From assembly GCA_000165345.1 (NCBI GenBank), contig CM000436.1, positions 256,001 through 320,000 on the forward strand: DNA of 64,000 nucleotides, given 5' to 3'. Under the pieces are notes generated by a model. It was given only the letters and a program-made list of their open reading frames with translations. It searched no databases and was not told where the DNA came from. Position numbers and translations under genes: made by a program. This document shows, one piece after another, positions 13,009 through 64,000 of this stretch (positions within the stretch are counted from its first letter, which is position 1; each line of letters starts with the position of its first letter).

Positions 13009-13230
13009 TAGTTAGGCCATTATATTATTTTCTAGTAATTTTAGCCTTTCCATTAACAATTAATTTATATCTTTTGAATATTTAATCATCTCAATCACTA
13101 CTGAAGCTACTACTCTCAATAATGCATGTGGGGGGCAATTGCATGACTTCCCGCCTAAAAGTTGCATGTGGAGAGAAGAAAAGTGTGATCAATAAATGAG
13201 AGAATAATGAAATAAAATGAATAAATAGAA

Positions 13231-14070
13231 ATGACAACAGTAATTAAGAAGAAGATTAAACTTCCGAGGAATATAACACCTGAATTTGTAAGTTTATTAG
13301 ATTAAGCTTAAAAAAAGAGATTGGTGAGAATTTCTTAATTTAAAAGAATTTCTTTCTTATTAAACAGTAATGATTTCTTAATTCTGGGAGAGTATTGAGA
13401 AATCATTTAATTAATTTTCTCTATTAATTATTGATTAACTTAACTTATTATTTTCTTCAAATAGGCTGTTGAATTGAAGGAATGTTTTGATTGGCAAGAT
13501 AGAAATGGTGATGGATTAGTTTCCAAGGAGTGTTTACTGGTATTATTAAGAGCAACAGGCCAGGTTTGGTCACTTGATGAAATTGACAAAATATGTCATG
13601 GTAAGTTTTTTGTTCTCCATTTGTAAAAAAAAAAAAGAAAAAATTGTTTAATATTGTAATATATTCATCTTTAATATTATAAAATTAAATTAAATAAAAA
13701 AATTCTTATTACTCGCAATGTTAGGACTTGGTTCAAAGGAAGTCGATTTCCAGACATATCTCGATTTAGTATCTCATAAAGTTATGTTAAAGGCTGATAA
13801 GGAAGAGTTAAGAACTGCCTTTAATGTTTTGGATAGATATGGAAATGGTAAAGTTTTGGTTAGTGATTTGAAACATATTTTGTGTAATATTGGAGAGAAA
13901 TTGACTGTAAGTTACATAAATTAACTCTTGTTTTTTAAGCTAAGCTTAAATATTTTGAATTGAATTCTATATTTTAGGAGGATGGTTTCCAAGAACTCTT
14001 GAGTATTTCAGATATTCCTGATGCAAATAGGTTAACATTTTTAACAGAAGAGGAATTTGTGAAAATGTAA
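13231..14070 (+). CDS. ELC1: myosin essential light chain (EF-hand, calmodulin-like; apicomplexan ELC1-like), 4 exons, ~155 aa
   Basis: Exons about 13231..13287, 13465..13600, 13725..13906, 13978..14070. All donors are GTAAGT and the acceptors are ATAG/TTAG/TTTTAG. Phases 0/1/0 join with no stops. Product MTTVIKKKIKLPRNITPEF|AVELKECFDWQDRNGDGLVSKECLLVLLRATGQVWSLDEIDKICHG|LGSKEVDFQTYLDLVSHKVMLKADKEELRTAFNVLDRYGNGKVLVSDLKHILCNIGEKLT|EDGFQELLSISDIPDANRLTFLTEEEFVKM. It aligns with the Toxoplasma MyoA essential light chain ([29 protein letters not shown]...). Only exon 3 is present in the ORF track (13718..13924). Confidence 0.75.
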
Positions 14071-14613
14071 GTTTATAATGGAAGGAATTGGATAAAGAAA
14101 TTGTATATGGGAAAGAAAAAAAATTATGAAAACATAAGAAGTAACTATTTTCACTATAATATTTTTTTTATCCATCCTTTCGTATTCAAAAAAAAACTAT
14201 TATCATTTTAATTATCTAATTTACTATTTTTATTGCTATATAATTTATTTGTGTAGATTTTCAGGAAATGTTAATTAATAGATTTAATTGTCTTTAAGTC
14301 TCGAATTTAAGTCAAAATAGAATTTTTCTTTTTTTGGAGGGAATTTTCTGAATGATATTATTTTGAAATATAATGTTAAATACAGATTGCTTGAATAATT
14401 AGCTGAATAAGATTTTCTATTATTGCTAATAATATTACTGTTACCAATTTGTTAGTATAATTTTCTGACTTCCGGGTTTGTATTGAATAATTTGGCTCCA
14501 AATAAAATCTACAAATTTCAAGCAATACTTACTTGTGATAAGGGTGGTATTAAATTTAGTACCAAAATATATAGGGGAGAAAAAAAAAGGACGGAAGAAT
14601 ATTATACATTATA

Positions 14614-17600
14614 ATGCAAAGTGATTTTCAGTATAAAGATCTTTTGACAGTTTTTAACATTCCAATTTCACTTTGGGTACAAAATGGGACTCATTTATTT
14701 CATAAGAATACTTCAACTTTGGTTGATAAAAATGGTAAAAGACTTTGTATTAAGGTAAGTTAAAAGGTGAAATTAATAAAATTAAATATTATATTATTAA
14801 TAAAATAAATTGATATATAGTGTATTATTGATATGTTTAAAAATAACCAAAAATCAAGTACATATTTATCACAGATTTGTGAAGATTTGATGTTGGTAAG
14901 TTAAAATAGATTAATAAAATTCATTTTCATTAAAAAAAAAAAAAAAAAAATTCAGATGATAAAATGTGAGAGAGGTAAAGGAGTTGTAAGATTTATTATA
15001 AGTGAGATTTTGGGAAATGAAAGTAATTTCATTATTGAAGAAATTAATAAAGTTGACGTAAGTTTTTGAAGTATATTTAAAAAATTATTAATGAAATAAT
15101 AAAAATAATATAATTTAAATGATAAATTTAATAATTAGGATGAAATGTTACTTAATAATCTTATAAATTTGAAGTTAACATTATTAAACAAACATTTTTC
15201 AATATCAGAAAATAAACAAAGACAAAAATTAAATGAAAATATATTAAATATAATAATTAAAAGTGTAAGTAAATTGTAATAAATATTTTATTATAAATAT
15301 TGATTTAATATAATTAATTTAACAAATAATTTTAGATGAATAATTTGAATATAAGAATGAGATCAATGGCAAAATTAATATATATACTATTTGATGATAG
15401 ACTTTCAATATACTCGAATAGTTTAATAGATAGAATAGTGGAAGATACAAAAAATCTATCAAGCTTTGGAAAGATGATTTTGAGAATGGACATAGAGAAT
15501 ATTCAATATTTAATTCCTATAATAGTTAAATTAATAGAATGCAATCCTGAGAAAGTAATAAATAATTTATTGATTGATAAAGGACTACATTTATCAAGAT
15601 TATTATGTGAAGTTACGGATAAGAAGATTTATTTTGAATATATTTTAGAGTTTTATTTACATATATTAAATAACTATCCAAATCAATTTGGAAATTTATT
15701 AATAGATAACAGTAATAGATTGGATATAAAAAGTAATAATAGTAAAGAAGAGTTATCTTTGAACATTTTAGTCGGAATAGAAAAGATGGCAATAATTCTA
15801 GCAAGATCAAGTAAATACTCTAAAAGCAATAATTATCATTCATCCAGAAACTTGGATATTGATAAATTTCAAGATACAGAATTTTCAATGAGTGACTTGG
15901 AATACATGCAGCAGGGAGGTTCTATTCCCAAGATGGGTAATTTTTTAATTAATAATTCTATGAATGAAAATAATATATTAGAGGAGATGGGAGAGCATGG
16001 TGAAAGGAGTTTGAGGATGAATATAAGCAATAGTAGTATTGGAAGTAGCATTATGAACATGAATAATAATCACATAAGTTATGGAAGAAAGGATTTTATG
16101 GAAATAAATGAATTGGAAGAAAAGAAAGTTGTTGATGGAATTAATATGTTTGGATTATTGAGAAATAGGGAAGAAGATGATAATAGATTAATGAAGAAAT
16201 TGATTCAATTTTTTAAAGGTTTTATGCTATATAAAAATAAAATGGAATTATTTTGGAATTCTGATAAAGAAAAGATAGATTTAGAAGATGATGAAGTAGA
16301 TTCAAATATAGATAATAACTGCAAAAAAAACAGATGGATTATGGAAGGAGAGTGTTTTGAAGTTGTTCATAAAATAATTGAATGGATAATAGAATTACTA
16401 AGAAATAGTATAGAAGTTGAATTAGATAACTTAGCTTTAGATTGTATTTTGCAAGTATTCACACAAGAAAAGTGCTGTAATTATGAGGAAGAGAAATCAG
16501 AAGCTGATGAAGAGCTTTCAGACCTTAATATAAATCAAAAAGATAATGATAATAATAAAAACAATTTATTGGAAAAAAATTCCGCAAATATAGAATTAAT
16601 AAATGAAGATAAATCGGAAGATTTTATTTTTAATATGAAACCTTTAAATATGAAATCCAAAAGAGTAACTTTCAAAAGAATTGAAGAAATTCCACCAAAA
16701 AAAAAATTAATAACTTTTAATGATGTGGATAAAAATAAATTACGTGTAAATGCATGCAAGCAAGGCGGGTCAAAATGTGACAATAATACCGGTATAGAAC
16801 AAAATAAATCATGTGGAAAATTATGTTTTCACCAGATTTTTGTAATAAAACATGGCCAGTATTTGTTGGATATTTTTTTAGAACTTTTTGATGATTATTT
16901 AAGAAAATTTGGATTAAATTTTATAAGAAGAAAGAGTGGAAATGCAAAGAGTTTATCATTTTATGACCAAAGTTACAAATATATAATCGATAATGAGCAG
17001 CAGATTGAGGAGGTATTATATAAAATAATTCAGGGAATAAATAATATTTCAGATGGGGTTGCTATTCAATCATGTCCTAGACAGATATTTGCAATAAGTT
17101 GGTTTATGGAATTTATTTTATACGGTTTTTCGAATGAGGAATCTGTATTAAAAAGTAAGCCACCAGTTCCTTTGTATGGTTCATCAAGTATGGATTTAGT
17201 AATGAAAGCTGCTAATATGGATCAACCATTGGAGCATGCACTATTAAGTATTTCTACAAAATTTAGTGAGGAAAGTAATCAAAATAATGAAGAAGTGAAT
17301 CAAATTCAAAAAGGATTAATTAATCAGATTGATACTATAAATCAGGTTCAAGTAGAAGTTGTTAACAAATTAATCTCTCTAACAGAAAGGATGTGTAAAT
17401 GTTTGTATAGCAAGGGTAAAAGAAACTCTAAATTAGAAGGTGAACATTTTAATGGAAGCTTTTATCAAGTGGATATCAAAAAGTTATGGAAACTTAATGG
17501 TACAGTTTACAGTAGGGATCTGCTACTAGAATATTTTTCAAATATCCTCCAAATTACAGAAAAGTTATTCGGTTTTAAAGGTGTTAAAGTTATTCAATTC

Positions 17601-31224: not shown

Positions 31225-33276
31225 TTAATATTTATTCCCATAACACGGAAAATTTGGACCTCCAGGAATCGAACCTGGATGCACGCCCATGCTCATAAAA
31301 TTTCCATTGCCGGTGCCACTTTCGCATGCAAAATTGGAATTGGCGCCGTTATTATTATTATTGTAAATGTATGGATTATTTAAACCTCCATTTCCATTAT
31401 TATATTGATTATTTACTGAATATTGATTACCTTCAAAATTTGCTGTCATTTGATTTGGATTTCCATTTTGATACGGTAACTGCGTGTGATGTAGTTGTAA
31501 TTTATCTGAATGTGAAAAGTATTGTGAATGAATATGTGAATTTTGACTTGAATTTGGGTACATTTGTTGCGCTTGCGTCTGAGAATGGAAAGAGGCGGTA
31601 AAGTCATGTCCATTATTATGGTTATAGAATGGAATTCTTCCCCTATTTTGTTGAATATCTTGTGCAATATATGCATTATTTGGGGCACTATATGAAAATT
31701 GTGAATAGTTATTTTGAAAGTTTTGGAATAATAAATTGCCTTGATTGTAACCAAATTCAGTTTCTGAAGTTCGTCTTGTTATTTGATTTTGGTGATTATC
31801 TTTTCTTAAGCTTAGGTCAAAATTAGAAAGGGAATTTTGTCCATAAATATTTCCGCTTCCAAATTGTTTAAATCGATTAAAGTTCTTATCTTTATTGTAT
31901 TGAAATTTTCCACTTGAGTTTGTAAGATTTTGGTTTGATGCTCTTCTATTGTTTTTGTTCTTAATGTAGTGACCCTGGTTATTGTTATTAGGCTTCTTTT
32001 GATATTCTTTTTGCTTTTTAAGTGAGATATTATTTGTAATAGAATCCTCAACAGCAGATTCTTGAATATTACCCAAATTATCATACTTTTCTACAAACTT
32101 CTTGATTGAAACTTCGTTTAAATTAACACTAATATCATCACCACTCTCTTCTTGTCCATCATCATCATCTTCATCTTCATCATATCCATCAGGAATAACT
32201 TCTCCATTTTCAATTTCAGGTTTTAAAGAAGAACCATCTTTCATATTAGAGTTAGTAGCACTTGATACTTTAGTTTTAGGGTCTTTTTTAAACTCCTTGT
32301 TAGAGAAAGGAGATTTTGATGTACTTGAAGTAAATACTGTACTTTTCCTATTTCCATGGCTTGTACTTGATAAATAACTACATTGTATTTTACCTGCCTT
32401 ACCTAATATAGTAGAATGTCTACGATCACAATATATTTTGGTACCTTTTTTAAGTAAGTCATTATTTACATTACTTTGTTTAGATAAGACGTAGAATGGA
32501 GATGAAATTGGACCAAATGTGTCTATAATTGCTCCTACTATTGTCTTATCCTCCAAACATAAAACTGATCCCAAATCTAACATTATAGTGGATGGGTCAC
32601 TTTTTACTATAAAGATTCCCTCCATGCCAAATATTGCTCCGTCATCAATAATGGAGTAAATTTCTCCAACAAACTCACAAGGAAGAGTAAGATCTACCTT
32701 TTCTGGCATATCCAAAATCTCAATATTTGGTAGCCAGCTTAATTTTTCTTCAAAGTTGTCTAATTGACCATCTTTTCTTATGTTACTATGCTTTCCTTTC
32801 TTAATCACCTCTTCTTCTGATTCTGCCATCTCATTTTCGCATTCACTAATATCAGATAAAGTACTCTTAGTACATTTATTATTATCCAGAATAATACCAA
32901 ATTGAGATAAATAATCATCAGATAGCTTCTCACCCAAAATTTCATTTTTAGATTCATGAACTTCAGAAACTTTATGGCGGTAAATCATCTCCTTCCTAAT
33001 TAACTCCTTAATCTCGTTATCCTCATTTTCGCTGGATTCATAGCCATCATCTTCAGAATTATTCAACTCATCATCTGTTAAGATAATATCAACATTATCG
33101 GATGTCTTCTCATTTTGTATTTTCCTACCTCTTGAAGAATCTATCGCAGATAGAATGGAAGCAGACTTGTAATTTTCTAGTTCTGCGAACTTGGATGCAA
33201 GTAATAAATCGTCAATTTCTGTTTCTCCATCAATAATTATCTCACCTCCACATAACTCATCAGCTTGAACTTCCAT
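31225..33276 (-). CDS. NAF1: NAF1-like H/ACA snoRNP assembly factor (Gar1-type beta-barrel domain) with Q/N/Y-rich C-terminal tail, 683 aa
   Basis: Core LTLPCEFVGEIYSIIDDGAIFGMEGIFIVKSDPSTIMLDLGSVLCLEDKTIVGAIIDTFGPISSPFYVLSK matches the NAF1/Gar1 domain (…VIFKSDRQAAGKIFEIFGPVAHPFYVLRF). Acidic N-terminus; prion-like N/Q/Y-rich C-terminus. Confidence 0.7.
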   Translation of the reverse strand: MEVQADELCGGEIIIDGETEIDDLLLASKFAELENYKSASILSAIDSSRGRKIQNEKTSDNVDIILTDDELNNSEDDGYESSENEDNEIKELIRKEMIYRHKVSEVHESKNEILGEKLSDDYLSQFGIILDNNKCTKSTLSDISECENEMAESEEEVIKKGKHSNIRKDGQLDNFEEKLSWLPNIEILDMPEKVDLTLPCEFVGEIYSIIDDGAIFGMEGIFIVKSDPSTIMLDLGSVLCLEDKTIVGAIIDTFGPISSPFYVLSKQSNVNNDLLKKGTKIYCDRRHSTILGKAGKIQCSYLSSTSHGNRKSTVFTSSTSKSPFSNKEFKKDPKTKVSSATNSNMKDGSSLKPEIENGEVIPDGYDEDEDDDDGQEESGDDISVNLNEVSIKKFVEKYDNLGNIQESAVEDSITNNISLKKQKEYQKKPNNNNQGHYIKNKNNRRASNQNLTNSSGKFQYNKDKNFNRFKQFGSGNIYGQNSLSNFDLSLRKDNHQNQITRRTSETEFGYNQGNLLFQNFQNNYSQFSYSAPNNAYIAQDIQQNRGRIPFYNHNNGHDFTASFHSQTQAQQMYPNSSQNSHIHSQYFSHSDKLQLHHTQLPYQNGNPNQMTANFEGNQYSVNNQYNNGNGGLNNPYIYNNNNNGANSNFACESGTGNGNFMSMGVHPGSIPGGPNFPCYGNKY

Positions 33277-43653: not shown

Positions 43654-44313
43654 ATGAATGGGTTTAGATTGTGTGGTGATATGCTCCACCTTTTGAGCAT
43701 TTTTCTTCTTTTAAAAAAGTTAAGAAAGAGTAAGAGTTGTTTGGGTATTTCATGTAAGATGCAGGAAATCTATTTGATAGTATTTTGTAGTAGATATATT
43801 GATTTATTATGGAGTTTTGTATCAGTATATAATACTTTAATGAAAGTTGTATTTATTGCAAGTACTAGTTATTGTATATATTTAATGAGATATCAAATTC
43901 CAATCAGTAGAACTTACGATTCAAATGCAGATAGTTTTCCATATCATAAATATTTATTATTACCAGCCCTATTATTGGGTTTTATTACTTCTGAAAAATG
44001 GATAGTTTCTGAGATATTATGGAGTTTTTCAATCTGGCTTGAATCTGTTGCAATTTTGCCCCAATTAGTACTTTTACAACAATTAAGAGAAGTAGAAAAT
44101 TTAACATCAAATTATGTTGTAACTATGGGACTTTATAGATTATTTTATATTTTTAACTGGATTTACCGTTTCTATGCTCAACATTATGTAAACTGGGTTG
44201 GCTGGATTGGAGGACTAATTCAAACAGCAATTTATGTGGATTTCTTTTACTATTATGCAATGAGTAAATGGTATGGCCAGAAATTGATACTTCCTTATTC
44301 TATTGAGATTTAG
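43654..44313 (+). CDS. ERD2: ER lumen protein-retaining receptor (KDEL receptor, ERD2), 219 aa
   Basis: [40 protein letters not shown]...[23 protein letters not shown]...[17 protein letters not shown] is colinear with human KDELR1 ([37 protein letters not shown]...[20 protein letters not shown]...LGLYRALYLANWIRRY). Confidence 0.9.
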   Translation: [219 protein letters not shown]

Positions 44314-44409
44314 TTCATGTAATTATTTATATTTTCTGCAGTATATATTGAATATTGAGTATAAGTAGAATAAATAAGATGAATTTCTAAGGAAGACTTT
44401 CAGATAAGT

Positions 44410-44429
44410 GAGGGGAGGGGGGAGGGAGG
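44410..44429 (+). repeat. G-rich tract GAGGGGAGGGGGGAGGGAGG (G-quadruplex-capable; resembles the Cryptosporidium G-box motif class)
   Basis: Read directly. It is the only strongly G-rich 20-mer in the window and lies in the convergent 3' spacer between ERD2 and the Pam16-like gene. Confidence 0.7.
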
Positions 44430-44693
44430 CATCGGAGTGTAGGTCAAATTCACGATCCTCTGCTTTTTTTTTTCTATTTTTTAATATTCTTTCTCTTCCA
44501 ATTAGCATCTAAACTGAGTATAAATTAAGAATCTCATTCTTTTAGTATCAAAAAGAGAAAAAGAAGAAATAAAGGAAGAGAAGTAAAAACATATATTACT
44601 TAGTATTAATTTGGACAAAGTTGAATAAAATAGAGAAAGAATTAGTGACCTATTATTTCATGTTCACTCTAATTAAAAAGTATATTTTCAATA

Positions 44694-45360
44694 TTAAATC
44701 TTTGAGTTTTTGATGATTTGGTCCAACATAAGTTTTTCAGCTATAATAAGTTTTTCTTGTATATATGGAGATCCTCTATATTTTCCACTTGCTTCATTCA
44801 ATTCAAGCATTCTTCTTGCAATCTAAAGAACAATATGAATAATTCAAGTTAGAAATAATGCCAATATATGAAGATACATTTTTTTAAAAATTTCTTTATT
44901 AGTTGAGAAAGATTTGAACCATATTTCAACAGAAATTTGGTTATACAAACTTTCAGAAGAGATTGATATAATGATATTTATTATAAACTACAACACTTAC
45001 CTTTTGTATATCTTCTACAGAATACTTCTTCCCAAATTCGGTACCTAGGATTTTGTTTGCTTCTCCAAGAGTCATTTTACTTCCAAAATTGATAGATCGA
45101 ATTGCTTTAATACCATCTAAATCAATTTTAAAGTTTTAATGATAGAATTATATTTGAATATTTAACAAATTTTAGATAAACAAACCTTTATATGAATCTT
45201 TAAAACATTGCTTTACAACACTTTGTAAGGATCCTGAAGTAATCTTAATTAACTTAGTTATTACTCTGGAAATAGTTATTATTAATTATTATGAGTCAGA
45301 AATTTTGGTAAATTATTCAAGTCAACACATCTTAGCTTACCTTAAAGTCCTCGGAGACAT
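44694..45360 (-). CDS. PAM16: Pam16/Tim16 (Magmas)-like J-like-domain protein lacking the HPD motif, 4 exons, ~123 aa
   Basis: Minus-strand exons 45341..45360 (MSPRTLK), 45186..45265, 45001..45116, 44694..44822. Donors GTAAGC, GTTTGT, GTAAGT; acceptors CCAG, TTTAG, TTTAG; phases 2/1/0 with no stops. Product ...DGIKAIRSINFGSKMTLGEANKILGTEFGKKYSVEDIQKIARRMLELNEASGKYRGSPYIQEKLIIAEKLM. It aligns with yeast Pam16 ITLDEACQILNIKEP-LTKEKIEERYTRLFKINSPEKGGSFYLQSKVYRAAERL. The HPD tripeptide of true J-domains (Pam18/Tim14) is replaced by NEA, which is the Pam16 hallmark. The second donor (GTTTGT) is weak. Confidence 0.6.
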
Positions 45361-45962
45361 TCTTATTGAAATACCATAAAATTAATAATATGCTTATTTT
45401 TCTATCTTTCCATGTATTTATTAGATTTATATATAATATATATTATATAGCCAAAATGTACTAATATAAGCATTAATTGTTTATATTACCATTTCTTTCT
45501 TAAATAGAAATTCAAAATCCAATAAGAAATAATGCAAAGAAAAGATATAAATTCAATATTAAGAACTGAAATTAATATGAATGAATGTGAAGTAGAAAAA
45601 CTATTATTGTAATCACTTGATAACTTGTATTATTTGTGGGGAAAAGTAAAAAGCTGAAAAATTAAGAAATCTATAATTTATTAACCAATTATTTTATAAA
45701 TGAAATAGACCATTAAAAAAATGAATCTAATTAATGATTTAAATCCTTATTTTATTTCCTTCTTACAATCAAAATTTATTATTAAAATTATAAATGATTA
45801 CCCCCCAACCGCTTTTATAGAAAGAATTTGCGATTTAGGCGGGAAAGATTGCATGCAGAAATGTAGTAGAGAATAACAATAATAACAGTGGTAATAGTAA
45901 TAATAATAATAGTAATAATAATAAAAATAATAATTAATTAATTAATTAAACAATTAAAAAAT

Positions 45963-47561
45963 TTAATGAAAGATCATTTCTCCAATAAGAACGGTGATTC
46001 CAAAAAATCGAACTGAGACTTTACTTAGATTAGTATTATCATTACATGAACATTTATTATATGAAACAATTTCTTTTTCAGTTTCAAAATAAAATATGTC
46101 ATCCCTGACACTAAGTAAAATGGCGGGAGAAGCTTCACAATGGTAATAAATCATAAAAGATTGACCAGGAACATTCCAAAATATATTTTTGGAACTTAAA
46201 AGAATTTCATTCAAGAATTTAAGACATTTTACTTTAAGTTTTGTGGAAATTTGTATTGGATATAAACTTGAAAGTAGAGATGTAATAGGTGTGTTACTAT
46301 TACGTCTTGTATTATTTTTAGAAGAAATAGTTGATACAATAATATTACCAATGCTAGGATGAATATTGCAATTAAATGTTGCAGAAGAGATATAAATGGG
46401 TCCATTACATGTATTGTATGTATGATCATGAATAGAAATAGCTTTACATTTAACAGATTCACTGAAAGGGAGTACATGATAAGATTGACCAACTTTAAGT
46501 TGACCATATTCAATATATAATGATGCTTTAAATTCAGATGAAGATACTGAGATGATTTCTAGAATACATGCAGAAAAAGAAGTAAATTGTTTAGATTCTT
46601 TATGACAATGACATTCAATAGGGCGTGGTATAGATCTTTTTGAACTTTGATTAATGCTTGATAGAATTTCAAACAAACTAGGCCCTTGATACCAAGAAGA
46701 AAGTTCTTTGGGAAAGGTGTTATTTTTATCATTAAGAATATTGACTCCATGATATGCACTTATTGGTAAAAAAATAATATTTGAATCATTTTTAATATCA
46801 GCAAGTTCTAAATTTATATAATTACTTATTGTATTAACAATATTTGAATAAACTTGTTCATCCCAATTACATAGATCCAATTTATTAACAGCAAAAATAA
46901 TATTCGATACATCTGCTAGAAGTGAATAAATAATATGTTCAATAGTTTGGCCTTTTTGAAATCCTGAATCAAATCCTGAGCTATCAATAACTACAATAAT
47001 ATTATCAGAAAACATTGATATTGAAAAGCTGTTAGGTATAAATTCAGAATGTCCTGGTGCATCCAATATTGTAACAAGTTTTTTTTCAATCATCATACTT
47101 TTAGCTGATATATTGATTGTAATTCCTCTTTCCCTTTCATCATCACAATCATCAAATATCCAAGCATATGCAAAAGATCCTTTTCCAATGATCTCACTTT
47201 CTTTCTTGTACTTTCTCATCACTCCCTCACTAATTAGTCCCAAACTCACAAATAAATGACCCATCAAAGTTGATTTACCAGAATCAACATGGCCTAACAC
47301 TACACAGCTGTAATTATCTATTGTAGGTGTTGATATTATTTCATTTTTCATCTGAATTTTTACTCCTTTATCCTGATTTTGTTTAGCCACATGTTTTTTA
47401 TCTGTTTGTACTGTAGGTTTTGTCTTTACTGTTTTTGTTATTGTTTCTCTTTCATATGCCACATTATCATCATCATCTGAATAGTAATCAGAGTCATAGG
47501 CATCATAATAATCATCATCTGTCAATTCCACATACTTTGATCGTGTACGTGCCATTGTCAC
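45963..47561 (-). CDS. HBS1: HBS1-like translational GTPase (eEF1A/eRF3 superfamily; Dom34/Pelota partner), 532 aa
   Basis: G-domain [91 protein letters not shown] matches HBS1L ([91 protein letters not shown]). Acidic, Tyr-rich N-terminal extension. Domains II/III are divergent, so eRF3 is less likely. Confidence 0.8.
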   Translation of the reverse strand: [532 protein letters not shown]

Positions 47562-57918: not shown

Positions 57919-60399
57919 TTAGAGTTTCTCAGCTGCAACTTTCTTCATACCATTGAATGATTCAGCTAAAATATCTTCAAGTTCTCCATAAAATTCTTTG
58001 TAAAGGCCAAATAAAGCGGATTGTTGTCTATAAGCAGTATTAAGGTCATAGTATTCTGAACTTAATCTTGAAAGTTCGTCTCTAAGTTTAGTAAGTTCTG
58101 CAGATTTATTCTCAATATCTTGTTTTTCTTTAATAGCTTTATGCTTAGAAGGAATATAATTAGATTTTATAGCTTGATCTAGTTGTGAAATCCTCTTGTT
58201 TGCATCTTCTAGATCTCTTCTGATACTGGTAATAATATTTGTTGAAATTGATTCAAAATCTGAACAAGTTGAACTTTTTGAAATAATTGAAAGAGTATCT
58301 AAAGATGCATTACTTGGACTTCTATGAGGAAGACTTTGTTTACAGAGTTTAGCTCTATTAAATCCACAACTTTCAAGCTGAGAAGTTGCAGGATTACAAT
58401 TTGCTGAATTGATTATTTCTACCATTCTTTTAACAAATCCTTTATTACTTAAGGAATTAAAATCTGTATTACATTTTGGACTGTTTAAAGATGAAAGATT
58501 ACATGGTATTTCTGGTTTTCCAAGACTGAAATGGCATGCTGGGAGATCAACAACTGATGTATTTCCTGAATATTCTGCTCTATAGTCAAGTATATCACTA
58601 TATTCAAGTTCCTTCTTTTCAAATAAATTACAGTCTTTTGGATTTGGTGCAACTTTACAAGGTGAATTAAACAGTGAACCAAAATCAGTCACTGGATTGT
58701 AATAACTAGATTTTGTTGATCCTTGAATTGAATTCTTTTCTGAAGGGGTATTGAATATATCATCTTCAATTAAAAGCTCTTCTTTTGGTAGTTCAAAACT
58801 CTTTTTAGATGTAATCTTAACGTTACTAGAACTCTTTTTACCAAATGATAACATTGACCCTAATTTTGAAAAGAAACCTGATGATTTTGATCCTTTTCTA
58901 AGTGATGAAGATCTTCTACTTAAAGAATTTACATCATTCAATTGATCTTCACTTTCTTCAAGAATATGTGGGAGCTCATTAAGATAATTAAAAGATCTAC
59001 TGGAATTTATTGAAAATTGTTTATTTAGTGAATTAATTCTGCTTAAATTAATAGAAGATCCTGATTCACTTCTTTGTATAGATTTTGACCTGATAGAAAG
59101 TTGTTTTGCTAGATCATCTTCATCTTTTGGTAGATATGGCTTTTTCTCAGATTCTGGATTCATTGAAACAAGAACTGGTGGATTTGAAACTCCTTTTCTC
59201 CAATCATCAGAAGTACATGATGGTATACCTGCAAAACAATCAGGGAATAAATCTTCAGAGTATGAATGTTGTTTTCTAGGTAAACAAATACTAACAACAT
59301 CAATAGAATCGGTGTTAACAGCTTTAAATAAGCGAATTACTTCGGATTTTGATACATCTAAACATCTTGTTGGTAAAAAGCAGACTCCTCTTTGTGGTTT
59401 AGTTGTTCTAACTTCTTCCATTAAAGTTAAAGAATCTTCTTCATTATCAAATTTAAAGACTCTGAAATTTCCATCACCTTTACCAAAAACAGTTAATAAT
59501 TTAAAGTTATCATCAAAATTTGGATATAAAGTACTTGACATTATATCTAATTGTATATCAATAATTGGTGATTCTATATTACGTATATCCCAAAGTTTTA
59601 CTGATCTAGATCCTGCTTTAGTAAATCCTGTGGTTACAAATTTATTTTGTATAGTACCAAAGCCACCCATCCAAGTACATTTACCAATACGGGTACCTTC
59701 ATGTGCTAAGAAATTTAATGCTGTCGTTTGTTCTCTAGGATCTACAATTCTAACTAATCTATCTTTATTAGTAGTAGCTAAGATATTACCAAAATAGTTC
59801 CATTTAATATCATAGCAAAGATTCTTGTTTTCTTGATAAGAGAAGATTTTTAAAGATCTTTCAAGATCCCAAATAGCTATTTCTCCATCGCTAGATGTTG
59901 AAGATAAGATATTATTAGCATTTCTATTAAACTCAATCAAAGTTACTCTCTTTTCATGGCCATGTAAACTTGCTATAGGTGAAGCTATTTTTTCAATAAA
60001 TTCTCCTCTTTTTATATTTTGAGAATCATTCATATCACTTTCCAAAACATCAAAGAATTCTCCATTATTTGGTAATTTCCATGTTTTGATACTTCTATCA
60101 TCAGAACTGGTTGCCAAAAAGTTATTATAAAATGGAGAGAATTTCATATCGGTGATTCCTGCTGAGTGACCAGAAACCATCATTATTGGAGGTTTTCTAA
60201 TACCTATTGAATCCATTGATATAATGCTTGCAGACCCTCCTCCTCCATCATTTGCAAAAGCTATGAACTTGGATGAACATGTTAATCCTGGTCCTTCATT
60301 TAGTCTAGTACCTATTCTTAGATCAGTATAGTTTTCCTTGAGTATTTTACTTGACAGGGTTTTGAAGCTATTAACTCCTGATTGCATTCTAAGTGTCAT
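57919..60399 (-). CDS. CORO: coronin (WD40 beta-propeller actin-binding protein) with long C-terminal extension and coiled-coil tail, 826 aa
   Basis: KFIAFANDGGGGSASIISMDSIGIRKPPIMMVSGHSAGITDMKFSPFYNNFLATSSDDRSIKTWKLP...LHGHEKRVTLIEFN...GKCTWMGGFG...TTGFTKAGSRSVKLWD...TVFGKGDGNFRVFKFD is colinear with the coronin-1 propeller ([68 protein letters not shown]...). The C-terminal ~60 residues (LTKLRDELSRLSSEYYDLNTAY...) look like a coiled coil. Confidence 0.9.
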   Translation of the reverse strand: MTLRMQSGVNSFKTLSSKILKENYTDLRIGTRLNEGPGLTCSSKFIAFANDGGGGSASIISMDSIGIRKPPIMMVSGHSAGITDMKFSPFYNNFLATSSDDRSIKTWKLPNNGEFFDVLESDMNDSQNIKRGEFIEKIASPIASLHGHEKRVTLIEFNRNANNILSSTSSDGEIAIWDLERSLKIFSYQENKNLCYDIKWNYFGNILATTNKDRLVRIVDPREQTTALNFLAHEGTRIGKCTWMGGFGTIQNKFVTTGFTKAGSRSVKLWDIRNIESPIIDIQLDIMSSTLYPNFDDNFKLLTVFGKGDGNFRVFKFDNEEDSLTLMEEVRTTKPQRGVCFLPTRCLDVSKSEVIRLFKAVNTDSIDVVSICLPRKQHSYSEDLFPDCFAGIPSCTSDDWRKGVSNPPVLVSMNPESEKKPYLPKDEDDLAKQLSIRSKSIQRSESGSSINLSRINSLNKQFSINSSRSFNYLNELPHILEESEDQLNDVNSLSRRSSSLRKGSKSSGFFSKLGSMLSFGKKSSSNVKITSKKSFELPKEELLIEDDIFNTPSEKNSIQGSTKSSYYNPVTDFGSLFNSPCKVAPNPKDCNLFEKKELEYSDILDYRAEYSGNTSVVDLPACHFSLGKPEIPCNLSSLNSPKCNTDFNSLSNKGFVKRMVEIINSANCNPATSQLESCGFNRAKLCKQSLPHRSPSNASLDTLSIISKSSTCSDFESISTNIITSIRRDLEDANKRISQLDQAIKSNYIPSKHKAIKEKQDIENKSAELTKLRDELSRLSSEYYDLNTAYRQQSALFGLYKEFYGELEDILAESFNGMKKVAAEKL

Positions 60400-60523
60400 C
60401 TTTAATAGAATTTTGTTTTATTTAACGCTTCTTATTAAGAATTTCTATTATTAGCAATTTATTTGCTTTACTCATTCATTTCTATGTGTATGTTTATTTA
60501 TATATATTATATATATTATATAT

Positions 60524-60571
<48 letters not shown>

Positions 60572-60784
60572 GTATATGTATTAGTTTTTAATGCTTTCAC
60601 TGAATATATTTATCAATAAACACTCTTTTCTTTGATACAATTGACTCACTACTTTTCTTACCTTTCAATGTTCTTATTTTTCTCTTTTAAAATCTTAAGT
60701 ATTATTATTATTTTTTTTTTTTGCCTTTACCCTTTTTTCTTGTATGATCACTCCCTGACACCTGGTATCTTATGATCATGCACT

Positions 60785-60826: not shown

Positions 60827-61197
60827 ACTGTACAAATTAATAATAAAATTATTATTAAAAATGTTTAATTTAATTAATCAAATCAAATCATTTTAAAATT
60901 AAGAAAAAACAAAAAAAAAGAAAATATAAAAATTTTCTTTATTATGCTTTGCTCCATTTTTCCTGTTTGAATCACAAATCTTTTTTTTTCAAAGAAAGTA
61001 AATTATTCATATAATTTTGTAGATAAAGCGCGCAAAACATGAGAGTAGTTTACATATAAAATGTAGGAAAGATGAATACTTGATGTTGAGTGGAAAAGAA
61101 GGGAGGATGGTAAAAAAAAAAAGTTGTAGAATAAAAAGCTTAAGTAAGTGATTATTTCTCCTTTTTTTTTAGAAAAAAAAAGAAATAACTATTTGAA

Positions 61198-61904
61198 TTA
61201 ATTATAGTTAGTTTCAATAGATAATGATTCATTTAAAGAGTAATCAGAAAGATCATCAATAATATCGTCTAACTCATATAAATACCTTTCTTTTTTATTT
61301 TTCCATTTTTCTTTAAGTTCATTTAGAACTAATTTCTTTTTATTATTTATTATATTTCTTTTATCTATTGTAGTATTATTTAAAGAAGAATTCAAAGTTT
61401 CTTCTGAAATAGTTGATTCTATACTATTTTCAGCATGTAATGTTTCTTCTGATTTAGTTAAAGTTTCTTCCAATTGTTCATTTCCTGCTTTAACATGCAT
61501 TTCCATCCTTGTATATTGTAATAATCCACATGTTCTACATCTGCAAATACTAGTATCTAAAAATTTACAAATATTAAAGTTGAAAATTTTAATCTAGCTT
61601 AGAAAGTTCTTGGAATTAATCTCATTTCAAGACTTTCCCGCCATTTCTAAATTACTCTTACCTTTTGGTACTATGGTATATGCAATACATCTAGGACATA
61701 ATACTTTTATGCATTGAAAGGCTTTACCAAAATATGGATATCCAACAAAATTAATGCATTGACAGAAATAACATTTAATAAAAATACCCACTAATTATTT
61801 ATATATAGTTATAGGTTTTATAATAATTCTTATTTTTTTTTTTTTAACTTACTAACATATTCATTCTTAGTATTACATTCAGAGCAAACCACTACATTAA
61901 CCAT
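61198..61904 (-). CDS. Cys-rich zinc-ribbon protein (four CxxC-type pairs) with acidic/Ser-rich tail, 3 exons, ~179 aa
   Basis: Minus-strand exons 61853..61904 (MVNVVVCSECNTKNEYV), 61662..61790 (MGIFIKCYFCQCINFVGYPYFGKAFQCIKVLCPRCIAYTIVPK), 61198..61556 (DTSICRCRTCGLLQYTRMEMHVKAGNEQ...). Donors GTAAGT and GTAAGA; acceptors AATTAG and TTTTTAG; phases 1/1. The alternative GTTAGT donor after TAT would put a stop in exon 2, which supports the model given. The ORF track shows only the 3' exon (61198..61506). Confidence 0.55.
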
Positions 61905-62089
61905 GGTTTCCCCTCCATTTGTTTTATTTTTTTCATAGAATACTCCTATTTTAATTAATTTATTCTTCTCTAAAAACTCTAATCTCTCTTTTATTTGTTT
62001 TAATTTCCTTTTTTTTCTTTCCTTTAATTTTTTTTATTTTTAATTTTATATTATATCCATAAATTATTATCTTTATTGCAAATTCAGAT

Positions 62090-62144
62090 TTTCCCGCCAT
62101 TTGTGAGGTATCTAAAATTTGCATTTCCACGCTTTGGCGCCAAT
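62090..62144. promoter_or_regulatory. TTTTCCCGCCATTT and TTTGGCGCCAAT boxes in the divergent promoter between the zinc-ribbon gene (-) and the 62410 gene (+)
   Basis: Direct read. Confidence 0.65.
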
Positions 62145-62409
62145 ATGAGGGGAAAATTATGGGTAACTGATTAAAAGAAATTGAATTGGAATTAAATTGG
62201 AGGAAAAAAAAGGAAAAAAAAAAAAAAGCAAAATTAAGAGAAGAAGAATTAGAAAGTTAAAGTTTGGAATTTGAGATCCATTTAAGGAGTAAATATTGAA
62301 GGAGGAAAATATAAACAAAAATAAATAAATAAAAATCCAACTATAAATTGATTCATATGTATAAAAAATAAGTGATCAATCACTTTAATTTTGGATTATA
62401 GTATTAATA

Positions 62410-64000
62410 ATGTTTGGGAAACCAAATAGTAAAGGAGTGGGGGGTAACAAATTAGTTATTGGTGCTAATGTGAGAAATAACAAAGATTTAGATATTCCAA
62501 TATCTTTTGGAAGATCTTCTAAGGACTATATAATAGAAAAAAAGAAAGAAAAAGAAAAGAGGATTTATGAAAGAATTAAAGGAAATAAAATGAAAATTAT
62601 ATCTTATTATGTATTACAATACAATTCATATAAACTTAAAAAAAGAGAATTTTGTAATGATTTGATTCATTTAATATCACAAAATCATAAAGACATAAAC
62701 AAATTGATTCAAATCTTTAGATTCACTCTAAAAATTAGTTCTAATGGTATTGAACAAGATATTGAAAGATTTAATATGATTATTGAGAATATTCATACAA
62801 ATTTTGAGAAAGTTTCTATTGAAATATCATTCAGTAATCTTTTATTTCTCTTTAGAAATTGTCTAATATTAATATTTCTTAATGATCAAAATAAAATTCA
62901 TAATATTAATAAAAATTTGGTAAAAAATCTTGCTGATCAAATATTTTACTCATTTTTTTCAAGATCTAATTTTCAAGATCAAAAGGTACCGAATATGCAA
63001 ATTAATAAGAAAAATTTTATTAACATGATTTTTAATTTTTTAATGATTGATTTATTTTTTATTAGATATTTTGAATTAAAAATCTTAAATAAAGAACTTG
63101 AAAATGAAATTATTATTGATATATTTAATGAAGTTTTTCAACTTTGTATATCCAAATTATCCAGCAAAGATAAATTGAATTTTTATTATATGGGTAAAGA
63201 TTTAATAGATTTTCCTAAAAGTGATCACTTTCTATTAGAAAAATCTAAAAAATTGAGTAAATACAATAATTCTCAAATGGAAATATTTTTTAAAAATAGA
63301 TATTTTTGGATTATATCTTGTTTATTTACTATTTTATTTAAAACTAACAATATTATTACAAAAGTTAAAACTCAAGAATTATTTCAAACTTATTTAGAAC
63401 TTTTGGATTTGGATTCTTTTCAAAATTGGATCATGAATGAAAATCAATATTCTATTAGAGTTATTAAAAGTCCATTTCAACAAATTCCTCCAAATTCACC
63501 CTTTTCTTTACTATTACTAAATTATTCTTTCTTTAATTATATTCAAGTTAATAAGAATTATTGTAAATTATCCAAAGTTATCAAACTTAATGAATTAAAG
63601 AAAATGAAAGAAACTGATCAAAAAGAATTTGTAAATACTATTGAAAATAATCTTTTGTCTATTTACTATATAATCAGTTCTTGGAATTTCTCACCAGATA
63701 CTTTAATTACTATAGACGAGACAATTTCTAACAAGAATTATACTAATAGAGATGAAATTATTCAAATGATTAGTTTTTTATTTCAAATAATTATACAAAA
63801 TAATAATACACAAATCAATTCAGATCAATCAAAATTTATCAAAGAAAAATTAAAGATTATGTATTTGATTCGTTTATATACTTTATTTTTAGATTTTCAA
63901 GGGAAATTCTTACTATTAAGTACTTATATAAAAAATACAGATATTATTAAAGATCAAAATATATTTTTTGGAATAAATAATCAACAATTAAATGAAAATC
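62410..64000 (+). CDS. hypothetical protein, 5' part only (ORF open to the window edge, >530 aa)
   Basis: ATG at 62410 (MFGKPNSKGVGGNKLVIGANVRNNKDLDIPISFGRSSKDYII...). No in-frame stop through 64000. Absent from the ORF track, presumably because it runs off the window. Preceded by a TTTCCCGCC / TTTGGCGCCAAT box pair at 62090-62144. Confidence 0.55.
   Translation, partial: MFGKPNSKGVGGNKLVIGANVRNNKDLDIPISFGRSSKDYIIEKKKEKEKRIYERIKGNKMKIISYYVLQYNSYKLKKREFCNDLIHLISQNHKDINKLIQIFRFTLKISSNGIEQDIERFNMIIENIHTNFEKVSIEISFSNLLFLFRNCLILIFLNDQNKIHNINKNLVKNLADQIFYSFFSRSNFQDQKVPNMQINKKNFINMIFNFLMIDLFFIRYFELKILNKELENEIIIDIFNEVFQLCISKLSSKDKLNFYYMGKDLIDFPKSDHFLLEKSKKLSKYNNSQMEIFFKNRYFWIISCLFTILFKTNNIITKVKTQELFQTYLELLDLDSFQNWIMNENQYSIRVIKSPFQQIPPNSPFSLLLLNYSFFNYIQVNKNYCKLSKVIKLNELKKMKETDQKEFVNTIENNLLSIYYIISSWNFSPDTLITIDETISNKNYTNRDEIIQMISFLFQIIIQNNNTQINSDQSKFIKEKLKIMYLIRLYTLFLDFQGKFLLLSTYIKNTDIIKDQNIFFGINNQQLNEN

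What the first reader, a model, noticed from the sequence alone, without database searches (positions are those of the whole stretch)
61198..61904. Three-exon CxxC-rich zinc-ribbon gene with an E2F-like TTTCCCGCC box inside its second intron
The assembled product has four CxxC-like pairs (CSEC, CYFCQC, CPRC, CRCRTC) in the first 75 residues, followed by an acidic Ser/Glu-rich tail. This looks like a small zinc-ribbon or LITAF-like domain, but no family can be named by eye. The second intron (61557-61661) contains GACTTTCCCGCCATTTC at 61631-61647. That is the same motif that marks promoters elsewhere in the window. It suggests either an intronic enhancer or an internal alternative promoter.
Basis: partly seen in the sequence, partly recalled or inferred. 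Interest (0 to 1): 0.5.

Follow-up and report, generated by a model that had tools for sequence, protein, structure and literature searches.

The report
Cryptosporidium zinc-ribbon gene, conserved intronic E2F box
This is a real, already annotated three-exon Cryptosporidium parvum gene for a small genus-specific protein with two zinc ribbons; its second intron holds a conserved copy of the parasite's main promoter motif inside a small stem-loop, which is a modest regulatory curiosity, not a new kind of system.

Summary
The window is Cryptosporidium parvum chromosome 8. The three-exon model (61904-61853, 61790-61662, 61556-61198, minus strand) gives a 179-aa protein identical to current GenBank C. 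parvum models (locus 8g1190). The 2004 annotation kept only the 102-aa exon-3 ORF.

Intron positions and phase hold from C. parvum to C. muris. Exon 2 is 129 nt everywhere and changes mostly synonymously. Eight cysteines are invariant and form two C4 zinc ribbons.

No Pfam or PDB sequence match is significant. An exhaustive HMM search of 1.84 billion proteins found only Cryptosporidium orthologues. The best fold matches, below significance, are the TMEM55B tandem Zn modules and RNA polymerase tandem ribbons. It is not LITAF-like.

The intronic GGCGGGAAA is real. It sits at the same place in intron 2 in five species or lineages (C. parvum, C. hominis, C. meleagridis, C. ubiquitum, an unnamed Logan species). 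It is degenerate in two species and absent in the C. bovis clade and the gastric species.

Unlike the seven promoter copies in the window, it is the 5' arm of a stem-loop.

My best reading is an intragenic E2F/DP site. An RNA hairpin role is the main rival. A conserved tail-only protein from an internal promoter is unlikely. Interest is low to moderate.

The parts
61853..61904 (-). Exon 1 of the C. parvum 8g1190 gene (ATG at 61904). It encodes MVNVVVCSECNTKNEYV plus the first base of codon 18, which is the first CxxC knuckle of ribbon 1.
   Evidence: The spliced product is identical to GenBank C. parvum P0039.
61791..61852 (-). Intron 1 (62 nt, GTAAGT...TTAG, phase 1).
   Evidence: The same position and phase are seen in 12 Cryptosporidium genomes.
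61662..61790 (-). Exon 2 (129 nt). It encodes the second knuckle of ribbon 1, the linker and the first knuckle of ribbon 2.
   Evidence: It is exactly 129 nt in the 8 species compared. Substitutions are mostly synonymous, for example 20 synonymous-only against 6 amino-acid-changing codons versus C. canis.
61557..61661 (-). Intron 2 (105 nt, GTAAGA...TTTTTAG, phase 1).
61634..61642 (-). E2F-like box GGCGGGAAA (TTTCCCGCC on the + strand), 20 nt after the intron-2 donor.
   Evidence: The GCGGGAAA core lies at the same offset (14-23 nt) in C. hominis, C. meleagridis, C. ubiquitum and the SRR31860986 species.
61624..61642 (-). Conserved block of about 19 nt, GGCGGGAAAGTCTTGAAAT (box plus TCTKGAAAT).
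   Evidence: Sequence comparison of intron 2 in seven species.
61595..61643 (-). Predicted stem-loop: UGGC.GGAAAGUCUUG ... CAAG.ACUUUCU..GCUA. The 5' arm overlaps the box and the 3' arm lies at 61595-61613.
   Evidence: RNAfold and RNAduplex against shuffles. It is the only one of the 8 GCGGGAA sites in the window with such a partner.
61198..61556 (-). Exon 3. It encodes the second knuckle of ribbon 2 (CRCRTC), a disordered acidic Ser/Glu region, a Lys-rich helix (about residues 120-168), an acidic end and the stop codon. It contains the old 102-aa ORF (61198-61506).
   Evidence: P0003 is the Iowa II model of 102 aa.
62090..62142 (.). Upstream promoter pair: GGCGGGAAA (62090-62098, same orientation as the intronic copy) and TGGCGCCA (62135-62142). 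The pair lies between this gene's ATG (61904) and the divergent HECT ligase ATG (62411).
   Evidence: The block is conserved in C. hominis, C. meleagridis, C. ubiquitum, C. canis and the SRR species, with one substitution in chipmunk genotype I.

Best explanation
Shown:
- The locus is the C. parvum chromosome 8 gene annotated as 8g1190 (CPATCC_003924 / CPATCC_0001240).
- It has three exons and encodes a 179-aa soluble protein found only in Cryptosporidium.

Inferred for the protein: the first 75 residues form two C4 zinc ribbons (C7, C10, C24, C27 and C49, C52, C67, C70). These probably pack into one small Zn-stabilised binding module. It is followed by a disordered acidic stretch and a Lys-rich helix.

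Shown for intron 2: it carries a conserved element of about 20 nt that begins with a perfect E2F-type site (GGCGGGAAA).

Inferred mechanism for the box:
- It is a genuine E2F/DP binding site in the DNA.
- It works as an intragenic, promoter-proximal cis-regulatory element. It would act with the matching upstream site 456 bp away on transcription of this gene, and possibly on the shared bidirectional promoter.
- I do not think it serves to start a conserved tail-only protein.

Shown by computation only: the same element is the 5' arm of an intron-specific stem-loop. That structure may add an RNA-level role in splicing. No function has been tested.
For: Gene model:
- The spliced product is identical to deposited C. 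parvum proteins.
- Baptista et al. 2022 (PMC8744675) state that introns of the IOWA-ATCC annotation are 100% RNA-seq supported.
- Splice sites, phase and the 129-nt exon 2 are conserved from C. parvum to C. muris, with mostly synonymous change.

Protein:
- Eight cysteines are invariant in 10 species.
- Both AF2 models show eight short strands.

Box:
- The motif is roughly 100-fold enriched in the window and otherwise confined to non-coding promoter regions.
- The 9-mer is the only k-mer shared by intron 2 of C. parvum, C. ubiquitum and the SRR31860986 species. Only 25 of 20000 shuffles share any 9-mer, and the offset from the donor is the same.
- Its orientation and flanks (AAATGGCGGGAAA) match the upstream site.
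- E2F-type motifs dominate ATAC-seq peaks in C. parvum. They also occur inside transcribed regions between ORFs of polycistrons (10.1101/2025.01.17.633476).
Against: - The box is degenerate in chipmunk genotype I (GCGGAAAA) and in C. canis (GACAGGAAG). It is absent in C. xiaoi, C. bovis, C. ryanae, C. muris and C. andersoni, so it is not essential to the gene.
- No binding, chromatin or TSS data for this locus could be reached.
- E2F/DP binding to any C. parvum motif has not been validated experimentally (PMC12246861).
- The published C. parvum E2F motif is the GCGC-core type, not GGCGGGAAA.
- The stem-loop offers a reason for conservation that needs no transcription factor.
- Both structure models are low confidence (pLDDT about 52), and no fold match is significant.
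Confidence: 0.45

Rival explanations
1. The conserved element acts in the pre-mRNA. A stem-loop starting 15-20 nt after the 5' splice site loops out the middle of intron 2. It would aid or regulate splicing, or give rise to an intron-derived small RNA. On this reading the E2F-like sequence is incidental, or a second layer.
For: - The box arm has a stronger downstream complement than shuffles in C. parvum (p=0.003), C. meleagridis (0.005), chipmunk genotype I (0.001) and C. canis (0.007). The combined p is about 6e-6 over five lineages that are not fully independent.
- In 6 of 7 species the window 15-18 nt after the donor is the most self-complementary spot of the intron. This includes C. ryanae, which has no box.
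- None of the seven promoter copies of the motif has such a partner (z -1.5 to +1.05, against -4.3 for the intronic copy).
- All three stem substitutions between C. parvum and C. meleagridis keep pairing.
- Li et al. 2022 report 23 intronic small ncRNAs in C. parvum and suggest they help keep introns (PMC9465071).
Against: - Whole-intron MFE z-scores are weak (-1.9 to +1.6).
- C. ubiquitum and the SRR species are not significant on their own (p=0.17 and 0.15).
- The C. parvum and chipmunk helices differ by a register shift, not by clean covariation (and my own reading).
- A hairpin does not need an exact 9-mer identical to the genome's main promoter motif in three lineages.
- Rfam finds nothing.
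Confidence: 0.25
2. The box is an internal sense promoter. It starts a transcript in intron 2 or exon 3 that encodes the 102-aa tail protein from Met77.
For: - The box lies 130 nt upstream of the Met77 ATG, within the 100-440 nt range seen for other boxes in the window.
- Internal monocistronic transcripts associated with E2F motifs exist inside C. parvum polycistrons.
- The species with the box region are also the ones with the long tail.
Against: - The in-frame Met is not conserved. C. ubiquitum and C. canis have their first Met far downstream. The SRR31860986 species has an intact box but no Met in exon 3.
- Short out-of-frame ATGs precede Met77.
- The correlation between tail and box is confounded by phylogeny, because it rests on a single clade.
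Confidence: 0.12
3. The box drives an antisense or other non-coding transcript across the 5' half of the gene.
For: E2F/DP motifs lie within 100 bp upstream of 93 C. parvum lncRNAs, most of them antisense (PMC7840661). E2F sites work in either orientation (general knowledge).
Against: No lncRNA sequence or gene ID for this locus was found in the held part of that paper's supplements. The FASTA file there was truncated, so this is weak evidence.
Confidence: 0.08
4. The box is a non-functional relic, or a chance survivor, of an ancestral sequence with no present role.
For: It was lost or degraded in several lineages with no visible effect on the gene.
Against: The exact 9-mer is retained at the same offset in three lineages whose introns are otherwise barely alignable. 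The expected frequency of the motif is extremely low.
Confidence: 0.1

Closest known systems
TMEM55B (PIP4P1) cytosolic domain, PDB 8oqh / 9qm9
   Different: There is no detectable sequence similarity. The scores are below the usual significance thresholds and the query models are low confidence. TMEM55B is a lysosomal membrane protein with transmembrane helices, while this protein has an acidic, helical, soluble tail.
Tandem zinc ribbons of RNA polymerase subunits and cleavage factors (A12.2, Rpb9, TFS4)
   Same: Two C4 ribbons in one small protein. They recur among the fold matches.
   Different: E-values are 0.05 or above with very large rmsd. There is no Pfam TFIIS_C or RNA_POL_M hit. Cryptosporidium should have its own orthologues of those subunits (inference).
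Cryptosporidium E2F/DP promoter motifs (Oberstaller 2013, PMC3734150; Xiao et al. 2025 preprint)
   Same: The intronic site matches the canonical E2F consensus TTTSSCGC. It is identical, over the 13 nt AAATGGCGGGAAA, to the site in this gene's own promoter.
   Different: It lies in an intron 270 nt downstream of the ATG instead of in an intergenic promoter. It has no nearby TGGCGCCA partner, unlike three of the promoter copies. It is embedded in a stem-loop.
Intronic small ncRNAs of C. parvum (Li et al. 2022, PMC9465071)
   Same: A conserved, structured element in one of the rare introns of this genome.
   Different: No C/D or H/ACA boxes were seen by eye, and there is no Rfam hit. Whether this intron is among their 23 loci could not be checked, because the supplements are not held.
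eL40 / eS27 ribosomal zinc ribbons
   Same: Weak sequence resemblance of ribbon 2 (E=0.016 for the single sequence, 0.22 with the profile).
   Different: Not significant. The length and architecture differ, and the family is genus-restricted.

Membership tests
Zinc ribbon (structural class) | Two CxxC knuckles supplying four Zn ligands, conserved across homologues | tested here: met
   C7, C10, C24, C27 and C49, C52, C67, C70 are invariant in 10 species, including C. muris and C. andersoni. The extra cysteines C29, C44 and C65 are not conserved.
Zinc ribbon (structural class) | Knuckles carried on beta-hairpins forming a small sheet, with fold similarity to known ribbons | tested here: inconclusive
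LITAF / SIMPLE-like domain (PF10601) | Match to the family profile | tested here: not met
   There is no hit even at E<=10, for the full protein or for 10 orthologous domains.
LITAF / SIMPLE-like domain (PF10601) | Long hydrophobic membrane-inserting stretch between the N-terminal CxxC and the C-terminal (H)xCxxC (feature recalled from general knowledge) | tested here: not met
   The knuckles are only 13-14 residues apart, with polar residues between them (NTKNEYVMGIFIK and IAYTIVPKDTSICR).
TMEM55 / PIP4P family | Sequence homology and C-terminal transmembrane helices | tested here: not met
   The profile search against PDB sequences does not recover 8oqh or 9qm9 at E<=10. The C-terminal half is acidic or Lys-rich and is predicted disordered plus one long helix.
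E2F/DP binding site | Match to the TTTSSCGC consensus | tested here: met
   TTTCCCGC(C) lies at 61634-61642.
E2F/DP binding site | Location in a promoter or open-chromatin region upstream of a gene | tested here: not met
   It lies in intron 2, 270 nt downstream of the ATG. The other 7 GCGGGAA sites are intergenic. Chromatin state is not testable here.
E2F/DP binding site | Evolutionary conservation of the site | tested here: inconclusive
   The site is intact in five species or lineages: C. parvum, C. hominis, C. meleagridis (core only), C. ubiquitum and the SRR31860986 species. It has one mismatch in chipmunk genotype I, is degenerate in C. canis, and is absent in five other species.
E2F/DP binding site | Bound by E2F/DP protein | not testable with these tools
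   This needs EMSA, PBM or ChIP. The review PMC12246861 notes the lack of functional validation in Cryptosporidium.
Known RNA families (Rfam), including snoRNAs | Covariance-model match | tested here: not met
   Over 60900-62500 the only match is a chance-level snoR53Y hit in exon 3 (16.9 bits against a gathering score of 43, E=8.8). Nothing matches in intron 2.

The most novel reading that the evidence does not exclude
Intron 2 is retained in this intron-poor genome because it is a dual regulatory module. At the DNA level it is an E2F/DP site. At the RNA level it is a stem-loop next to the 5' splice site that gates splicing, conceivably bound by the zinc-ribbon protein itself as an autoregulatory loop. 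Because exon 2 is symmetric (129 nt, phase 1-1), skipping it would give an in-frame product with a single hybrid ribbon.
Probability: 0.08. Interest if true: 0.55.

Novelty: new member of a known kind. Interest (0 to 1): 0.3.

Why it matters
Cryptosporidium is the only apicomplexan genus that kept E2F/DP factors, and how they control genes there is untested. A conserved E2F-type site in an intron, paired with an identical upstream site and wrapped in a stem-loop, is a compact and mutable test case. It could show whether these motifs act only in promoters, and whether some of the few remaining introns persist for regulatory reasons.

The protein itself is a genus-restricted, uncharacterised tandem zinc-ribbon family. 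It is annotated inconsistently across species: 99-179 aa, or missing altogether. The comparison here gives a corrected model for C. ubiquitum, C. canis, chipmunk genotype I, C. bovis and C. ryanae. None of this changes current understanding; it is an incremental annotation and regulation note.

Tried and rejected
- The bacterial promoter/terminator scan is irrelevant for a eukaryote and found fewer sites than shuffles.
I used the 96%-identical C. hominis orthologue and alignments of returned proteins instead.
- The afdb50 fold library was unavailable.
- The second, domain-focused AF2 model was no better (pLDDT 52.5).
- Word-indexed homology searches with the single sequence and with a profile found only Cryptosporidium. 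So did the exhaustive HMM search.
- LITAF, LSD1-type, eL40 and TMEM55 membership were considered and rejected.
- Literature searches for cgd8_1190, cpbgf_8001190, the CPATCC ids, cubi_03343 and CMU_025120 gave nothing.
- Supplements of the lncRNA paper had no hit for the locus. Supplements of the polycistron and small-RNA papers are not held.
- MAFFT mis-aligned the box region twice, so I compared intron 2 by hand and by scripts.
- Longest-common-substring tests with mononucleotide shuffles were underpowered pairwise. The three-way k-mer test was informative.
- The C. felis contig ended before the gene.
- I did not try to compute an 'effective intron length' from MFE structures, because the outer helices are model-dependent.

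Full report
**Origin of the window**

The window is AT-rich (20-32% GC). The 102-aa ORF at 61198-61506 (minus strand) is 100% identical to a Cryptosporidium parvum Iowa II hypothetical protein on a 1,344,712-bp contig (XP_627026).

The flanking genes are a divergent HECT ubiquitin ligase (ATG at 62411, + strand) and a coronin-like WD40 protein (57919-60399, minus strand). Every Cryptosporidium genome I fetched that covers this interval has the same three-gene order.

**Checking the gene model**

Reading the minus strand and testing all GT/AG combinations leaves one open frame:
- exon 1: 61904-61853
- intron 1: 61852-61791
- exon 2: 61790-61662
- intron 2: 61661-61557
- exon 3: 61556-61198

Both introns are phase 1 and the product is 179 aa.

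This protein is residue-for-residue identical to GenBank C. parvum entries QOY39870.1 (CPATCC_003924), CPATCC_0001240 and CPHLJ_8g1190. It is 96% identical to a 179-aa C. hominis protein and 82% identical to a 177-aa C. meleagridis protein. So the three-exon structure is already in current annotations. The paper describing the IOWA-ATCC re-annotation states that its introns are 100% supported by RNA-seq (PMC8744675).

Independent comparative evidence agrees:
- I located the gene in C. hominis, C. meleagridis, chipmunk genotype I, C. ubiquitum, C. canis, an unnamed species assembled from SRR31860986, C. xiaoi, C. bovis, C. ryanae, C. muris and C. andersoni.
- In all of them the two introns sit at the same codons in phase 1.
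- Exon 2 is exactly 129 nt in the 8 species compared. Its substitutions are mainly synonymous, for example 20 synonymous-only against 6 amino-acid-changing codons versus C. canis.
- The introns differ widely in length. Intron 2 runs from 75 to 170 nt, and between the more distant species its sequence is hardly alignable.

**The protein**

Ten orthologous N-terminal domains align without difficulty. Eight cysteines are invariant: C7, C10, C24, C27 and C49, C52, C67, C70. That makes two CxxC-x13/14-CxxC units.

The tail is lineage-specific. The C. bovis clade and the gastric species lack the Lys-rich helix.

No known family fits:
- Pfam gives nothing above threshold. It returns only sub-threshold resemblances to assorted zinc ribbons: Com, S27e, TFIIB and DmmA_C.
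- PDB sequence searches give only eL40, Lin28 and IntS9 at E of 0.016-0.06.
- An exhaustive HMM search of 1.84 billion representative proteins returned seven proteins, all Cryptosporidium orthologues of this gene. The family is therefore genus-restricted and has no paralogues.

Structure prediction was of limited help:
- AlphaFold2 on the C. hominis orthologue gave low confidence: pLDDT 52 overall and 60-79 in the domain.
- The pattern is nonetheless consistent: eight short strands, a disordered region at residues 78-128, and a long helix at 120-168.
- A second model, of the short C. xiaoi protein, was no better.
- TMEM55B's domain is two tandem four-Cys Zn modules that act as one peptide-binding unit (PMC12393467).

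None of these matches is significant. I take them as support for 'tandem zinc ribbons' and as a hint for 'binding platform', not as family membership.

LITAF-like is rejected. There is no profile match, and there is no hydrophobic insert between the knuckles.

**The motif in the window**

| Motif | Observed | Expected |
|---|---|---|
| TTTCCCGCC | 5 | 0.04 |
| GCGGGAA | 8 | 0.66 |
| GGCGCC | 13 | 0.22 |

Long ORFs cover 64% of the window, yet 20 of these 21 sites lie outside them, mostly 100-440 nt upstream of a start codon.

This matches the literature. E2F-type motifs are the most over-represented upstream motifs in C. parvum (PMC3734150). They dominate ATAC-seq peaks, and they also occur between ORFs inside polycistronic transcripts (10.1101/2025.01.17.633476). 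Binding by the parasite's E2F/DP proteins has not been shown experimentally (PMC12246861).

This gene's own promoter has a GGCGGGAAA / TGGCGCCA pair at 62090-62142. The intronic copy has the same orientation and the same 13-nt core, AAATGGCGGGAAA.

**Is the intronic copy conserved?**

The state of the box at 14-23 nt after the intron-2 donor:

| Species | Sequence at the box position |
|---|---|
| C. parvum, C. hominis | intact GGCGGGAAA |
| C. meleagridis | AGCGGGAAA (GCGGGAAA core intact) |
| C. ubiquitum | intact GGCGGGAAA |
| SRR31860986 species | intact GGCGGGAAA |
| chipmunk genotype I | TGCGGAAAA |
| C. canis | GACAGGAAG |
| C. ryanae | ACGGCAAAA at the same offset |
| C. xiaoi, C. bovis, C. 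muris, C. andersoni | nothing comparable |

Among the three deepest lineages with the box (C. parvum, C. ubiquitum, SRR species), the box supplies the only shared 7-, 8- and 9-mers. Only 25 of 20000 composition-matched shuffles share any 9-mer.

Conservation extends about 10 nt further 3' (TCTKGAAAT). So the element is retained beyond chance in one clade, but it is not indispensable.

In C. parvum the box region pairs with a segment 30 nt downstream: GGAAAGUCUUG with CAAG-A-ACUUUCU, closed by UGGC with GCUA.

- **Duplex test.** I compared duplex energy of the box arm against the downstream intron with 1000 shuffles. This gives p=0.003 (C. parvum), 0.005 (C. meleagridis), 0.001 (chipmunk), 0.007 (C. 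canis), 0.17 (C. ubiquitum) and 0.15 (SRR species). The Fisher combined p is about 6e-6 over five lineages, which overstates independence.
- **Window scan.** Scanning all windows along each intron, the spot 15-18 nt after the donor is the most self-complementary one in six of seven species. This includes C. ryanae, which has no box.
- **Promoter copies.** The other seven GCGGGAA sites in the window have no such partner: z from -1.5 to +1.05, against -4.3 for the intronic copy.

Against this:
- Whole-intron MFE z-scores are unimpressive.
- The C. parvum and chipmunk helices differ by a register slip, not by clean covariation.
- Rfam finds nothing.

I regard the stem-loop as probable but unproven.

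**Weighing the mechanisms**

- **Hairpin alone.** This would not explain why its arm is an exact copy of the genome's dominant promoter motif in three lineages.
- **E2F site alone.** This would not explain the intron-specific complement.
- **Internal promoter for a tail-only protein.** This is disfavoured as the conserved role. The in-frame Met is missing in C. ubiquitum and C. canis, and the SRR species, with an intact box, has no Met in exon 3 at all.
- **Antisense promoter.** This is possible in principle, but I found no record of one.

I therefore put an intragenic E2F/DP cis-element first (0.45). The RNA stem-loop role comes second (0.25) and may coexist with the first. Then come the internal sense promoter (0.12), the relic reading (0.10) and the antisense promoter (0.08).

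**Novelty and verdict**

The gene model is already known. The protein is an uncharacterised, genus-restricted member of the zinc-ribbon class. The intronic box is a new instance of a known motif in an unusual place, with an added stem-loop.

I could find no paper mentioning the gene under any identifier.

This is a tidy, correct observation of modest interest. It is useful for annotation clean-up and as a small test case for E2F-dependent regulation and intron retention in Cryptosporidium.

Noticed in passing
window 61791-61852 and 61557-61661 (both introns): Both introns are phase 1 and split each zinc ribbon at the same relative position: 7-8 residues after the first CxxC and 6 residues before the second. 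This suggests the two ribbons arose by tandem duplication of an already split ribbon.
   Followed up: partly
L005:3001-3768 (C. ubiquitum cubi_03343): The annotated 140-aa model is exactly the exon-2-skipped form. Yet exon 2 (129 nt, in frame, intact splice sites) is present and conserved in that genome. This is either a mis-annotation or a hint of in-frame exon skipping, which would leave one hybrid ribbon.
   Followed up: partly
L006, L007, L004, L009, L011 (chipmunk genotype I, C. canis, C. xiaoi, C. bovis, C. ryanae): Annotation of this gene is inconsistent across species. The chipmunk (99 aa) and C. canis (128 aa) models miss the N-terminal zinc-ribbon exons. C. bovis and C. ryanae have no model, although all three exons are intact. 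The 104-aa C. xiaoi model does contain the ribbon domain and matches the genome; it simply lacks the long tail.
   Followed up: yes
L006:2340-2352 and L006:2815-2826 (chipmunk genotype I): Both E2F-like boxes of this gene carry a core substitution in this species: GGCGGCAAA upstream and TGCGGAAAA in intron 2. C. canis keeps the upstream box but not the intronic one.
   Followed up: no
window 43301/43314, 60784/60818, 62091/62136: E2F-like sites often come as a pair, GGCGGGAA plus (T)GGCGCC(A), 13-45 nt apart. The intronic copy is solitary.
   Followed up: partly
window 31342-31347: This is the only one of the 21 E2F-like sites in the window that lies inside a long ORF (31225-33276, minus strand).
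   Followed up: no
window 45839-45845 and 13148-13154: Two GCGGGAA sites lie in long ORF-free gaps (44313-45963 and 13008-15336), with no obvious start codon of a long ORF nearby. They may mark small, spliced or non-coding genes.
   Followed up: no
L011:2405-2535 (C. ryanae intron 2): The motif ACGGCAAAA occurs twice in this intron, 13 nt after the donor and again about 60 nt later. The intron also has a strong internal hairpin (MFE z=-2.2).
   Followed up: no
L013 (Logan SRR31860986 contig, 8473 bp): This is an unnamed, more GC-rich Cryptosporidium. Its orthologue has CPSC like C. canis, an intact intronic box and no Met in exon 3. The species was not identified.
   Followed up: no
window 60463-60600: A TA-rich, microsatellite-like tract translates as runs of YIYIYI. 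It lies just upstream of the coronin start codon (60399).
   Followed up: no
L001:about 2700-2800 (C. hominis LN877954): A run of N (an assembly gap) sits in the shared HECT / 8g1190 promoter region of this C. hominis assembly.
   Followed up: no
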